Positions 23,261 through 26,519 of a stretch of DNA of 64,000 bases are shown one piece after another. How positions within the stretch are numbered: position 1 is the first letter of the stretch; every line of letters begins with the position of its first letter. The DNA comes from the human T2T-CHM13v2.0 reference genome, Homo sapiens. The position numbers and the translations under genes were made by a program. Location: the NCBI RefSeq assembly GCF_009914755.1, contig NC_060936.1. One strand, 5' to 3'. The notes below the pieces were generated by a model, which saw only the letters and a program-made list of their open reading frames with translations, made no database searches and was not told the DNA's origin.

Positions 23261-23578
23261 GTTTGTTTTTGGGGTTGTTGTCATTGTTGTTGTTGTTTTT
23301 GAGGTGGAGTCTCACTCTGTTGCCCAGGCTGGAGTGTAGTGGCATGATCTTGGCTCACTGCATCTCCGTCTCCCAGGTTCAAGCAATTCTCCTGCCTCAG
23401 CCTCCTGAGTAGCTGGGATTACAGGCATGCACCACCACGTCCGGCTAATTTTTGTATTTTTAGTAGAGACGGGGTTTCACCATATTGGCCAGGATGGTCT
23501 GGATCTCTTGACCTTGTGATCCGCCTACCTCAGCCTCCCAAAGTGCTAGGATTACAGGCATGAGCCACCGTGCCCGGC
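23261..23578 (-). mobile_element. Alu (AluSc-like) with degenerate (CAA)n tail
   Basis: 'ggccaggatggtctggatctcttgaccttgtgatcc'. Confidence 0.93.
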
Positions 23579-23593
23579 TCTACACATTTTCTT

Positions 23594-23706
23594 TTCTTTT
23601 CTTTTTTTTAATATAATAATAATGTTTATGCGAGGGAATCAGGATAAAACTAAAATAACAGACTAAACGTACATAAGAGAGAGGGGTAATTGAAGTTAAA
23701 GCATTC
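23594..23706 (-). other. Putative 3'-transduced segment (97 nt) plus second A-tail of the SNORA70-RPL10 retrocopy
   Basis: Lies between the inner poly(A) (23707-23727) and an outer A-rich tail (about 23587-23609); CATAAA at 23630-23625, 15 nt before the outer tail; inside the 12-bp TSD acacattttctt (23582-23593 and 24238-24249). Confidence 0.65.
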
Positions 23707-24096
23707 TTTTTCTTTTTTTTTTTTTTTAGGTGGACAGGAAGTAGAATTTATTGGTGAGTATTAAGAGGGGGAAGCACAGTGAAAGCCCTCATGAGTGCAG
23801 GGCCCACCACTTCTCTAGAGGGCCACAACTGGGAAGGTACTTGACCCCACAGCCATCTGGGATGAGCCGCTTCTCAGCCACCATGTCTTCAAATTCATTG
23901 GCATTGAACTTGGTGAAGCCCCACTTCTTTGAGATGTGGATCTTCTGGCAGCCAGGAAACTTGAACTTGGCCCTGCCCAGGGCCTCAATCACGTGCTCCT
24001 TGTTCTGCAGCTTGGTGCGGATGGAGATGATAACTTGGCCAACTGGCCACAGTGCCCCGGGGCTTTCCAAAGGCACCTCGCATGCCTGTTTGGAGC
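23707..24096 (-). pseudogene. RPL10P13: RPL10 (uL16/QM) processed pseudogene fragment: last two exons spliced, 3'UTR, AATAAA and poly(A)
   Basis: Translates to RPL10 [16 protein letters not shown] and [42 protein letters not shown]...ALHS*. Stop at 23789-23791, AATAAA at 23752-23747, poly(A) at 23727-23707. 8-nt frameshifting deletion at 24042/24043 and CpG-type R>C/W changes. The RPL10 identity is firm; the paralogue number P13 is from memory and unverified. Confidence 0.93.
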
Positions 24097-24144
24097 CTAC
24101 ACTGGGGTAGTGCAAGGTCAAAAACATGTACATCCATCTGAAAG
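24097..24144 (-). other. Retained 3' end of the RPL10 snoRNA-hosting intron, with acceptor AG
   Basis: ctttcagatggatg...tgaccttgcactaccccagtgtag|GCTCCAAACAGGC joins the snoRNA 3' end to the RPL10 exon. Confidence 0.85.
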
Positions 24145-24237
24145 GACTGTCTCCAAGGCCCTTTAGAGCAACCCGTACAACAAACAGGCTGCATACACTA
24201 CCAAGGAAGCTGCTGTTTGCAGCCATTGCACACTGGG
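24145..24237 (-). ncRNA. SNORA70: SNORA70 (U70) H/ACA snoRNA retrocopy, 5'-truncated and probably non-functional
   Basis: cccagtgtgcaatggctgcaaacagcagcttccttggtagtgtatgcagcctgtttgttgtacgggttgctctaaagggccttggagACAgtc matches the 3' two-thirds of U70. H box ACAGCA at 24216-24211; ACA box at 24150-24148, 3 nt from the end. Confidence 0.9.
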
Positions 24238-26519
24238 ACACATTTTCTTAACACAAGTTTGAATTCCCCAGGACTCATTATTTTGACCTCGGCTTTCTGA
24301 AATGGAAGTTTGACGTAGATATACATTCTTTTCCTTAACAAAGGAGTTACAGATCATGAGTTGGTTAGTGCAATATACTTAAAATTGCTCCTTGCACATA
24401 TGTCCACAAGTTTATCTTCTTCCCCTGGGTTCACAGCTTCCTCTGTTACCCTTACAGGGTCTCCGCATCTGTATTCACATGGGACAGCCTTGAGCAGCAC
24501 AGCTCAGACCTCAGCTCGGCTGGGACGTTGTAGAAGAAAGTAGAGTACCAGGAGGAGAATGAAGTAGATGAATTCTAAGATTCTACGCTCTCTAGTGGAG
24601 TGTTGTTTCCTAAAAAATTATCAGACCACACATTCCACACATGAAAAATTCATCATACTTTGAAGATAATTAAAGTAAATGTCATCCAATTTTAACCAAA
24701 TTTCTATTCTACCACTAAAGGACATGCAAATGGCTTCTTTTAAAAATATATATAGCCAGAATGGTTTTTGGCAATATAACAATGAAAAAACTGAAACATT
24801 TTGGGGGTAATTAACTCATGTTTTAGATATCTACCATTATTAAAGTTTTCATGGGTAAGACTAGATCTTAAAACAGATTGATTTTTTGATGACCAGAAAC
24901 TGAACTGAATTTGAACAAGTCCCATTGGGACTGAATTTTTAGCATCTCAAAAGTGGTGTTTAAAACCACACTACTCTGACAATGGGAAACCAATGAACAT
25001 AGTACAGCCACAGGATCTTTATATACTGCAATGGGTGGAAGTAAAGTTTCCCTAAAATAAAATTGATGTTCCTATTATCAATTATCCCACAAGGAAGTAA
25101 ATCCTGAGACAAGAAAGGAGGGCTTGGGAAATATATGTCAGTTACCGAAGACAAAGAGAACCTCTCCCTTTTCTAGGTGAGGGACTCATCTTAATGAGCA
25201 ATGAAGCCTCAATACTGTAACAGCCAGTGCTAGTGACTGGGCATGGGGTGAGTTGCCCCTATAATCAAGAATAAAGCAAGCACCTGCCTGATGAGGAACC
25301 CCCAAAGGATTTGGAACAGAGGCGGCAATTTTCAGATGTTTTGTATAAGTTGCACTTCCCTTCTATTATCCTCAAACAATATGTTTTAAAATGCTCCAAA
25401 TCCTAAAAATCTGAAAATGATTAAATGTAGTTCCTGGCCTCTCCTTTACTAAGAGAAATTAAAGAAAAAGGAGACGCCCAACTGCTGGAGTGCACATGTC
25501 TAGTGGAGTTGTTTACCCTTTCCCAAGTCCGAGGTGGCTTTGGCAGCAGCAATTATGGTTGGAGAAAACCGTGCCTGCAGTGATGTTCTCACAGACAGTT
25601 CAGTAGAAAAAGGCCAGCTGAAGAGAGATTCTGGAGCAACCAGCACCTGAGCCAGTGGTGTGGATGCCCTGCCATGAGGGCCTGCAGCAGCATGCAGTGA
25701 GAACATTCGGGATTTCCTTTTGAGAATGTCAAGTCATCACGGACAGCGGCTCATGAGTCAGACCTCACCCCGTGTATCATCGTCAGAACACCATCCATGG
25801 TGGTTTGGACCATTACGCAGTTTTAAATTGTTTTTGTTCTTATTCATTGTTTAATTTATATCTGTGGTGGATCATTGGTTAAAGACAGGAAGCAAAAGAA
25901 CACTGATGTTGAAATACAAATTTATACGAAACATAAAAGAGATAATTCTATAAATTCCCTTAAGAGTTTCTTTAACCAAACCTACCAGTTGCATTGAACT
26001 AATCAAAATATTTATATAGCACATCACGCTCTCTCTAGTTCTACTTTTAGAATGTTGAAAGGGAAACTATTTTGCCAATAATATGGAATTTGGGTTTTTT
26101 GTCTAATGGGATTAAATATTATCCATAACAAAATGTTTTATTTGAGCATAGGCTAGGAAAATGACAACTGAAATCTTTTCTCTGAACCCATATTTTAGGA
26201 ACAAAAATATAAAAATTATTTCAATAAAACACTTGTGTTTTTAAAAGTAAAATCCAAGAAATCCAAACATAAAATAAGCAGTTTTGTTGATGTCGCCACA
26301 AGTAGTTACATTTATATCTATATTTTAATATATATTTGGTCCCCAACTAAATATTATAGAAATCATTTTACATTTCAGATCTTTCAATTTTTTAAAACTA
26401 AAAAAAAATTTTAAATAAAATTTTAAAAAATTGATAGCAAATGTTACTTGTTAAGTGGGAAAACGTTAAAATGTATTTTATATAATAATTATTAAGATTA
26501 TATTTAAACAATCAATTAA

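What the first reader, a model, noticed from the sequence alone, without database searches (positions are those of the whole stretch)
23582..24249. Double poly(A) and a 97-nt extra segment inside the TSD: a second-generation snoRNA retroposon with 3' transduction
Seen, on the minus strand: TSD - snoRNA - intron - RPL10 exons - AATAAA - A-tail 1 (23727-23707) - 97 nt of apparently non-RPL10 sequence (23706-23610) - CATAAA 15 nt before A-tail 2 (A8 GAAAA GAAAA GAAAA) - TSD. The 12-bp TSD acacattttctt (23582-23593 and 24238-24249) is a perfect match and sits at an L1-endonuclease-type TCTT/AA site. Inference: the template was not the RPL10 gene but an earlier SNORA70-RPL10 retrocopy that was transcribed, read through its own poly(A), and was remobilised by L1. 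The U70 family would then have had secondary source elements, and the 97-mer is a barcode for the parent locus.
Basis: partly seen in the sequence, partly recalled or inferred. Interest (0 to 1): 0.8.

Follow-up and report, generated by a model that had tools for sequence, protein, structure and literature searches.

The report
SnoRNA retrocopy copied from another retrocopy
This dead, 5'-shortened copy of the SNORA70-RPL10 transcript on chromosome 12 was not copied from the RPL10 gene but from an older retrocopy on chromosome 1, whose neighbouring DNA it still carries as a 97-base tag.

Summary
On the minus strand there is a perfect 12-bp TSD, a 5'-truncated SNORA70, the rest of the RPL10 intron, two spliced RPL10 exons, AATAAA and A-tail 1. 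Then come a 97-nt extra segment, CATAAA, A-tail 2 and the second TSD copy.

The 97-mer has exactly one other place in this genome (chr1:201236708-201236810, 95% identity). It lies directly after the poly(A) of a full-length SNORA70-RPL10 retrocopy.

The first 14 nt of the 97-mer are that chr1 copy's own 3' TSD, which is present on both sides of the chr1 element. So the 97-mer is chr1 target DNA. Homology between the loci starts inside the snoRNA and stops 15 nt after CATAAA. The chr1 flanks beyond both ends are single copy.

The window copy is therefore a second-generation, L1-mobilised Type-3 snoRT with 3' transduction. The 8-nt deletion is private to the window copy. A third copy (chr12:68.6 Mb) groups with the two (support 97/98), which hints at a second daughter without proving it.

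The family and both elements are already catalogued (Weber 2006; Luo and Li 2007, U70n and U70b). I did not find the parent-daughter link in the text I could read. No outgroup genome was available. Interest is modest.

The parts
24238..24249 (-). 5' copy of the 12-bp target-site duplication (aagaaaatgtgt), preceded by tt
   Evidence: (D5)
24145..24237 (-). 5'-truncated SNORA70 (about model nt 43-135). The 5' strand of hairpin 1 is missing; the 3' hairpin and the ACA box are kept.
   Evidence: The local alignment to chr1 starts exactly at 24237.
24097..24144 (-). Unspliced remainder of the RPL10 penultimate intron downstream of the snoRNA, ending in the ag acceptor
   Evidence: collinear with chrX parent L004
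23728..24096 (-). Last two RPL10 exons, spliced (junction 23942|23941; the 74-nt intron of the parent is absent). They include a private 8-nt deletion and the 3' UTR with AATAAA at 23752-23747. Annotated as RPL10P13.
23707..23727 (-). A-tail 1 (A15 G A5): the poly(A) tail of the chr1 parent retrocopy, copied as internal sequence
23610..23706 (-). Transduced chr1 DNA, 97 nt. It consists of the chr1 copy's 3' TSD (23705-23692, with the preceding g at 23706 matching the chr1 5' TSD copy) plus about 81 nt of unique chr1 flank. It is 93/97 identical to chr1:201236714-201236810. It includes CATAAA at 23630-23625.
23594..23609 (-). A-tail 2 (A8 G A4 G A...), not templated at chr1. It starts 15-16 nt after CATAAA, and its last A's overlap the TSD.
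23582..23593 (-). 3' copy of the 12-bp target-site duplication

Best explanation
The element at 23582-24249 (minus strand) is a second-generation Type-3 snoRNA retroposon. The chain of events is as follows.

1. An L1-made retrocopy of a partly processed RPL10 RNA inserted on chr1 at about 201.236 Mb (T2T), making a 14-16-bp TSD. Its content was SNORA70 at the 5' end, the downstream intron, the two spliced last exons and poly(A).

2. That chr1 copy was later transcribed in sense. Its AATAAA was passed over. The retrocopy had lost the GU-rich downstream element of the X-linked gene, because that element lies beyond the cleavage site.

3. The RNA was instead cleaved and polyadenylated 15-16 nt after a CATAAA about 120 nt further on. 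At chr1 this CATAAA is followed by TGTTGTTTT.

4. L1 endonuclease/reverse transcriptase nicked chr12 at TTTTCTT/AA and primed on the new tail. It copied the RNA back through the chr1 flank, the old A-tail, the RPL10 exons and the intron, and stopped inside the snoRNA (5' truncation). This left a 12-bp TSD.

Shown here: the anatomy, the unique chr1 match, the direction of copying, and the bounded homology. Inferred: the use of CATAAA as the signal, the reason for read-through, the L1 machinery, the promoter, and an age of very roughly 15-30 Myr.

The window copy itself is a dead fossil. It has no complete H/ACA snoRNA and a broken RPL10 frame.
For: -: a 107-nt query covering the 97-mer finds 2 places in the 3.1-Gb genome, itself and chr1:201236708-201236810 (95%).
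- at chr1 the match lies directly after the A11 tail of a full-length SNORA70 (160.9 bits) + intron + RPL10 exons + AATAAA.
- the chr1 element is bracketed by AATGCTTTAACTTC (L002 934-947 and 1507-1520); this 14-mer occurs once in the window, at the start of the 97-mer.
- one local alignment joins L002 990-1603 to window 24237-23609. It begins at the base after the 5' TSD and ends where A-tail 2 begins.
- 32/500 mismatches in the element and 4/97 in the flank (Fisher p=0.49), so both parts are of the same age.
- the chr1 5' flank (158 nt) and the chr1 DNA beyond the cleavage point (120 nt) are single copy, so this is not a segmental duplication.
- of the 27 places found with the snoRNA+intron probe, only the window copy extends past the chr1 poly(A) into chr1 flank, apart from the chr1 locus itself.
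- of the 20 flank queries that hit another locus, 17 hit only through Alu-type matches to 15-21 loci. Two hit one locus over only 27 and 39 nt. The best hit of the chr1 3' flank is its first 95 nt matching the window copy.
- the 12-bp TSD is present 2x, against 0.01 expected.
- chr1 and the window copy fall in one clade with support 97/98.
- (read directly): the parent has TGTCTTTGTAT after its cleavage site, and the chr1 copy has A11 + target DNA there instead. TGTTGTTTT follows the CATAAA site at chr1.
- the chr1 copy is on the same strand as the Tim17-domain exons upstream and the M1-peptidase exons downstream.
- Luo and Li Table 1 lists it (U70b) as intronic and without the antisense flag.
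Against: - No outgroup genome could be searched, so the empty chr12 site and the order of insertion among primates are not shown.
- chr1 and the window copy share no derived change that is exclusive to the two of them (0 such sites). Every change they share is also in chr12:68.6 Mb. The 8-nt deletion is private to the window copy.
- By my reading of exon positions, the chr1 copy may lie between two genes rather than in an intron, so the promoter is unknown.
- CATAAA is a weak signal, and its use is inferred only from spacing.
- The genome search skips very common words and scores only the best candidates, so 'two places' is strictly a lower bound.
Confidence: 0.92

Rival explanations
1. The 97-mer is chr12 target DNA. 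On this view a first-generation retrocopy from the X-linked RPL10 gene ended at A-tail 1, and the true TSD is the weaker aaaagaatg-type repeat (23702-23714 and 24324-24336).
For: (D4) finds a 12/13 direct repeat at those places.
Against: The stretch 24250-24323 would then have to be retrocopy, but it has no homology to the chr1 copy or the parent. The 97-mer sits next to another copy of the same element on chr1 and starts with that copy's TSD. Part of the weak repeat is simply the A-tail plus the chr1 TSD.
Confidence: 0.01
2. DNA-level transfer. Either a segmental duplication of the chr1 locus landed on chr12, or gene conversion from chr1 overwrote an independent chr12 retrocopy.
For: The two loci share 614-629 nt at about 94% identity.
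Against: Homology ends at a poly(A) site, with an untemplated A-tail followed at once by a perfect TSD, and it starts inside the snoRNA right after the other TSD copy. The chr1 flanks beyond both ends are single copy. After conversion of a pre-existing copy, the TSD would abut tail 1, not tail 2.
Confidence: 0.02
3. A chimeric retrocopy by template switching. L1 RT started on an unrelated polyadenylated chr1 transcript and jumped to a SNORA70-RPL10 RNA from the X-linked gene.
For: Chimeric retrocopies bracketed by a single TSD exist. Weber 2006 discusses them, including one with a U70 snoRT.
Against: The jump would have to land by chance at the exact junction that already exists in chr1 genomic DNA: retrocopy poly(A) followed by that retrocopy's own TSD. 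The window copy also shares the chr1 clade's derived states, which are absent from the parent (positions 134, 385-386, 444).
Confidence: 0.02
4. The direction is right, but the source was not the present chr1 locus. It was a lost or unassembled duplicate of that locus.
For: This cannot be excluded from one genome. The window and chr1 copies have no exclusive shared changes.
Against: Only one matching locus exists in a telomere-to-telomere assembly. Divergence in flank and element is equal and moderate.
Confidence: 0.03

Closest known systems
Type-3 snoRNA retroposons (snoRTs) of U70/SNORA70 from RPL10 (Weber 2006, PLoS Genet, PMC1687206; passages and sections 8, 11, 13 read)
   Same: The content is the same: a snoRNA at or near the 5' end, the whole downstream intron, the spliced last two RPL10 exons, an A-tail, a 12-16-bp TSD and a ttAAAA-like site. 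Weber counts 30 human U70 Type-3 snoRTs, 12 of them with a partial snoRNA.
   Different: Weber derives Type-3 snoRTs from the host-gene pre-mRNA. Here the template came from a snoRT, so the copy carries an internal A-tail plus 97 nt of the parent snoRT's flank. In the main text the word stem 'transduc' appears only as an analogy. The supplements could not be opened.
U70n, U70b and U70m in Luo and Li 2007 (NAR 35:559, PMC1802619; Table 1 and passages read)
   Same: Three entries match by chromosome and order. U70n (chr12:74369190, 5'-truncated, intronic, with poly(A)) is this element. U70b (chr1:200214211, intronic, full hairpin-hinge-hairpin-tail) is the chr1 parent. U70m (chr12:67307282) is the chr12:68.6 Mb copy.
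   Different: The table lists them as separate retrogenes of U70. No parent-daughter relation is given, and 'transduc' and 'source' each have 0 occurrences in the main text. The coordinate equivalence across assemblies is my inference.
L1 and SVA 3' transduction (Moran 1999 and Szak 2003, as cited by Weber; recalled otherwise)
   Same: Read-through of the element's own poly(A) signal, use of a downstream signal, two A-tails inside one TSD, and unique flank usable as a barcode for the source locus.
   Different: The carrier is neither an autonomous element nor a dedicated SINE. It is a processed-pseudogene-like snoRT with no known promoter of its own.
Secondary retroposition of retrogenes (RNF113B; Mol Biol Evol 2011, PMC3002245; abstract passage only)
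   Same: A retrocopy serves as the template for a further retrocopy.
   Different: That case concerns an expressed protein-coding retrogene. Here the source is a snoRNA/ribosomal-protein pseudogene, and the proof is a transduced flank rather than phylogeny.
SPA lncRNAs (5' snoRNA-capped, 3' polyadenylated; seen in search listing only; original paper recalled, not read)
   Same: Full-length family members start exactly at the snoRNA 5' end and end at a poly(A) site. This is the architecture expected if a snoRNP blocks 5'-3' trimming of a cleaved pre-mRNA, as Weber also proposed.
   Different: No RNA data were examined here. The window copy is 5' truncated, so the 5' end of its template is unknown.

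Membership tests
Type-3 snoRT (Weber 2006) | Contains snoRNA sequence, starting at the mature 5' end or truncated | tested here: met
   SNORA70 homology runs from 24237 to 24145, truncated at about nt 43.
Type-3 snoRT (Weber 2006) | Entire downstream intron of the parental host gene, followed by processed 3' exons | tested here: met
   Collinear with chrX parent L004. The intron remainder is kept and the 74-nt last intron is removed.
Type-3 snoRT (Weber 2006) | A-rich tail and a TSD at an L1-type site | tested here: met
   A-tail 2 plus a 12/12 TSD, with tt before the 5' TSD.
Type-3 snoRT (Weber 2006) | Template is the parental host-gene transcript | tested here: not met
   The template came from the chr1 retrocopy, because chr1 TSD and flank are carried along. 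It is therefore a second-generation variant.
3' transduction event | Extra unique sequence between the element's own poly(A) and a second poly(A), all inside one TSD | tested here: met
3' transduction event | The extra sequence maps immediately 3' of a source copy of the same element | tested here: met
   chr1:201236708-201236810 lies directly after the chr1 copy's A11 tail.
3' transduction event | A poly(A) signal 10-30 nt before the second tail, at a place where the source locus has no A-run | tested here: met
   CATAAA lies 15-16 nt upstream. chr1 continues ...tatattattagtgttg. Use of the signal is inferred.
3' transduction event | Empty target site in an outgroup, and the source locus older than the daughter | not testable with these tools
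   Only the window's own genome is held (header: 'It has no relatives here').
Functional H/ACA snoRNA (SNORA70 paralogue) | Two hairpins with H and ACA boxes | tested here: not met
   The 5' strand of hairpin 1 is absent. The Rfam hit (95.3 bits) is full-length only because 56 nt of flank are placed as an insertion.

The most novel reading that the evidence does not exclude
The chr1 copy (U70b) was not a one-off template but a secondary master copy. Its snoRNA module is almost as good as the parent's (160.9 against 161.8 bits). On this reading it caps the 5' end of a polyadenylated RNA, SPA-like, making a stable L1 substrate. That substrate gave at least two daughters. One is the window copy, tagged by transduction. 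The other is the full-length chr12:68.6 Mb copy (U70m), which again starts exactly at the snoRNA 5' end and uses the RPL10 AATAAA. The SNORA70-RPL10 unit would then be an incipient, self-propagating non-autonomous retrotransposon lineage in primates, rather than a simple series of pseudogenes from one X-linked gene.
Probability: 0.25. Interest if true: 0.55.

Novelty: new variant of a known kind. Interest (0 to 1): 0.35.

Why it matters
Processed pseudogenes and snoRNA retrocopies are usually treated as dead on arrival, all copied from one parental gene. Here a unique 97-nt flank shows, without relying on phylogeny, that one snoRT was transcribed, polyadenylated and retroposed again. That gives a concrete source-daughter pair for three uses:
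- dating the events;
- asking what made the chr1 copy expressible (sense orientation between two genes, an intact snoRNA module, loss of the downstream poly(A) element);
- re-examining family trees of SNORA70 paralogues, some of which are expressed snoRNAs.

It also shows that the model-based snoRNA span for this locus includes about 70 nt of unrelated DNA. The wider significance is modest, because every mechanistic ingredient is already known.

Tried and rejected
1. Shared diagnostic indel. The 8-nt deletion is private to the window copy, and the chr1 3-nt and 7-nt deletions are private to chr1. There is no exclusive chr1+window substitution (0 sites).

2. Family-wide test for further secondary sources, using nonsynonymous states shared by two or more copies. 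There is far too much homoplasy, both at CpG sites and among old copies, so it was not used as evidence.

3. First tree. It gave the window copy a long branch (0.074) because unrelated 5' flank had been aligned to snoRNA columns. I redid it with flanks masked and the two poorest rows, L024 and L029, left out, using 25 of 27 rows. The clade and its support were unchanged and the branch fell to 0.037.

4. Order within the trio. Three sites favour chr1 + chr12:68.6 and two favour window + chr12:68.6. It remains unresolved (support 40.8/74).

5. ORF scan of 80 kb around the chr1 locus to name the host gene. It gave 902 candidate frames, too many to scan. I replaced it with three Pfam searches of the genome.

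6. Alu TSD next to the element. No direct repeat was found, and I did not pursue it.

7. Literature phrases for retrocopies of retrocopies. One search gave 0 papers. One search gave 3 papers, one of them relevant.

8. The search of earlier findings and the supplements of both snoRT papers were closed. Weber's Figure S3 and Luo and Li's supplementary list may show these loci, and I could not see them.
Full report
**1. What is in the sequence**

Reading 24500-23200 on the minus strand gives these features in order.
- The 12-mer aagaaaatgtgt, 24249-24238, preceded by tt.
- SNORA70 sequence from 24237 to 24145.
- 48 nt of intron ending in ag, 24144-24097.
- Two RPL10 exons joined without their intron, 24096-23942 and 23941-23728.
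- AATAAA, 23752-23747.
- A15 G A5, 23727-23707.
- 97 nt that are not RPL10, 23706-23610, holding CATAAA at 23630-23625.
- A second A-rich tail, A8 G A4 G A4 G..., from 23609.
- The same 12-mer again, 23593-23582.

An Alu on the same strand starts three bases further on, at 23579, and runs to about 23290.

The 12-mer pair is exact (family D5). These are its only two occurrences in the 64-kb window. The expected count is 0.01, and 0 of 100 shuffles gave two.

**2. The snoRNA is truncated**

Rfam reports SNORA70 over 24307-24145 at 95.3 bits, as model positions 1-135. But the alignment places 56 nt where the model has 28. Upstream of that it matches little more than AAGCCGA.

The multiple alignment with the chrX parent and the chr1 copy and the local pairwise alignment both start homology at 24237. 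That is the base after the TSD and corresponds to about snoRNA position 43. The copy therefore lacks the 5' strand of hairpin 1 and is not a complete H/ACA snoRNA.

The RefSeq row LOC124900321 (24145..24307, 'cmsearch') has the same overshoot. Another 5'-truncated family member (L019) behaves the same way: its hit starts 52 nt before real homology.

**3.

A 107-nt query (23606-23712) against the window's own genome (3.1 Gb, 24 contigs) found two places. One is itself. The other is chr1:201236708-201236810, plus strand, at 95% identity.

At chr1 (locus L002) the match lies directly behind an A11 tail. That tail ends a full-length unit: SNORA70 (L002 948-1082, 160.9 bits), intron remainder, RPL10 exons, AATAAA.

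The chr1 unit has its own TSD, AATGCTTTAACTTC, at L002 934-947 and 1507-1520. The second copy of that TSD is the beginning of the 97-mer. In the window the 14-mer occurs only once, at 23692-23705.

The g just before it in the window (23706) matches the g before the chr1 5' TSD copy (…ttagaatgc…). The present chr1 3' copy has an a at that position. This is consistent with the window copy preserving an older state of the chr1 junction, but it is not proof.

**4. Extent and direction**

One local alignment joins L002 990-1603 to window 24237-23609.
- In the element part there are 32 mismatches in 500 aligned bases and 3 indel events.
- In the flank part there are 4 mismatches in 97.
- The two rates do not differ (Fisher p=0.49), so element and flank arrived together.

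Beyond L002 1603, chr1 continues as ...attagtgttgttttatac... with no A-run, while the window has its second tail. That tail was therefore added to RNA and was not copied from DNA.

The 158 nt upstream of the chr1 element and the 120 nt beyond the cleavage point are single copy in the genome. The shared block is thus bounded by a point inside the snoRNA and by a poly(A) site. That is the signature of reverse transcription with 5' truncation, not of a segmental duplication.

The direction is chr1 to chr12 for three reasons. chr1 has the snoRNA 5' part that the window copy lacks. The start of the 97-mer is duplicated around the chr1 element as its TSD. Only the window copy has a tail and a TSD after the 97-mer.

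**5. Why read-through is plausible (inference from sequence)**

In the chrX gene the cleavage site is followed by ...tgtctttgtat..., which is GU/U-rich. That element lies beyond the mRNA end, so it is not retroposed. The chr1 copy has A11 plus target DNA there instead.

The chr1 CATAAA, in contrast, is followed 5-13 nt after the inferred cleavage point by tgttgtttt. That CATAAA is a minor but used variant of the signal, and that GU-rich downstream elements matter, is general knowledge recalled and not tested here.

**6. Who transcribed the chr1 copy**

The chr1 copy is on the plus strand at 201236155-201236810.
- Pfam searches of the genome place Tim17-domain exons upstream at 201214982 and 201221311, plus strand.
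- An M1-peptidase N-terminal exon lies downstream at 201246583.
- Leuk-A4-hydro_C exons lie at 201262006-201263354. All are on the plus strand.

From memory these genes are TIMM17A and RNPEP. No tool gave those names.

The copy is therefore co-oriented with both neighbours. Read-through from upstream, or an upstream start of the downstream gene, would transcribe it in sense. Luo and Li list it (U70b) as 'Intronic' without their antisense flag. From the exon positions I cannot confirm that it is intronic. The promoter is unknown, and the 5' truncation of the daughter has erased the template's 5' end.

**7. The family**

The chr1 snoRNA+intron probe (186 nt) found 27 places: the chrX parent, chr1, the window copy and 24 other retrocopies. 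This is a lower bound. Weber counts 30 Type-3 U70 snoRTs.

Eighteen of the 26 retrocopies start within a few bases of the snoRNA 5' end, and most copies end at the RPL10 poly(A) site. Only the window copy runs on into another copy's flank.

In ML trees rooted on the parent, chr1, chr12:68.6 Mb and the window copy form one clade.
- With all 27 rows: SH-aLRT 97.2, UFBoot 98.
- With flanks masked and L024 and L029 left out (25 rows): 97.3/98.
- Stem length is 0.013 and terminal branches are 0.026, 0.028 and 0.037.

The clade rests on states absent from the present parent: position 134 G>T, positions 385-386 to CA (CpG-prone), and position 444 C>T.

Inside the clade the signal conflicts. There are 0 sites exclusive to chr1+window, 3 for chr1+chr12:68.6, and 2 for window+chr12:68.6.

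The chr12:68.6 copy is full length, has its own TSD (AAAAAACACCCTG), ends at the RPL10 site and carries no chr1 flank. It may be a second daughter of chr1. It may also be the mother of chr1, or a product of a lost X-linked allele. None of these is proven.

A family-wide search for shared disabling changes was swamped by homoplasy.

**8. Age (rough, inferred)**

Pairwise divergence is 36/597, or 6.0%, about 3% per lineage. With commonly quoted primate neutral rates (recalled) this is of the order of 15-30 million years, around the time apes and Old World monkeys separated. I could not check presence or absence in other primates.

**9. What is known**

Weber 2006 (PMC1687206; abstract, sections 8, 11, 13 and passages read) defined Type-3 snoRTs. 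The paper found U70/RPL10 to be the commonest case, with 30 of 42 human RPL10 processed pseudogenes of this type and 12 carrying a partial snoRNA. It proposed cleavage of the pre-mRNA followed by 5' trimming to the snoRNA. L1 3' transduction is mentioned only as an analogy.

Luo and Li 2007 (PMC1802619; Table 1 and passages read) list U70n (chr12, 5'-truncated), U70b (chr1) and U70m (chr12) as separate retrogenes. The main text has no occurrence of 'transduc' or 'source'.

Searches for SNORA70 + RPL10 + retrotransposition + transduction and for phrases meaning a retrocopy of a retrocopy turned up no description of this parent-daughter pair. 'Secondary retroposition' of a protein-coding retrogene is in print (PMC3002245, abstract passage).

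**10. Verdict**

The element is a fossil with no evident present function. Its value is as a clean, barcode-proven case that a snoRNA/ribosomal-protein retrocopy served as a source for a further retroposition. It is a new variant of a known kind and of modest interest.

Noticed in passing
window 24238-24307 (minus strand): The RefSeq 'cmsearch' pseudogene LOC124900321 (24145..24307) and the Rfam full-model hit extend about 70 nt past the true 5' end of the truncated snoRNA, through the TSD and into unrelated target DNA. The same overshoot occurs for the 5'-truncated copy in L019, where the hit starts 52 nt before homology.
   Followed up: yes
window 23290-23579 (minus strand): A full-length Alu in the same orientation starts 3 bases after the snoRT's 3' TSD. 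No TSD for it was found, so the order of the two insertions is open. Weber 2006 reports that snoRTs often share insertion hot spots with SINEs.
   Followed up: partly
L007 1114-1691 (chr12:68.6 Mb, minus strand of the locus): A full-length SNORA70-RPL10 retrocopy (142.6 bits) with TSD AAAAAACACCCTG groups with the chr1 and window copies at 97/98 support. It shares three to four derived states that the X-linked parent lacks. It is a possible second daughter of the chr1 copy, without transduction.
   Followed up: partly
L002 948-1082 (chr1:201236155-201236289): The chr1 source copy's snoRNA scores 160.9 bits against 161.8 for the parental SNORA70. That is the highest of the eight retrocopies scored. 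This is compatible with a still-functional or long-constrained snoRNA module.
   Followed up: partly
L003-L029 (27 loci): Eighteen of the 26 retrocopies begin within a few bases of the mature snoRNA 5' end. This is the architecture of a 5' snoRNP-protected, 3' polyadenylated RNA.
   Followed up: partly
L014, L017, L022: Three family members are interrupted by insertions of about 300 nt. These look like Alus from their multi-locus BLAST hits. Weber noted the same for primate U70 snoRTs.
   Followed up: no
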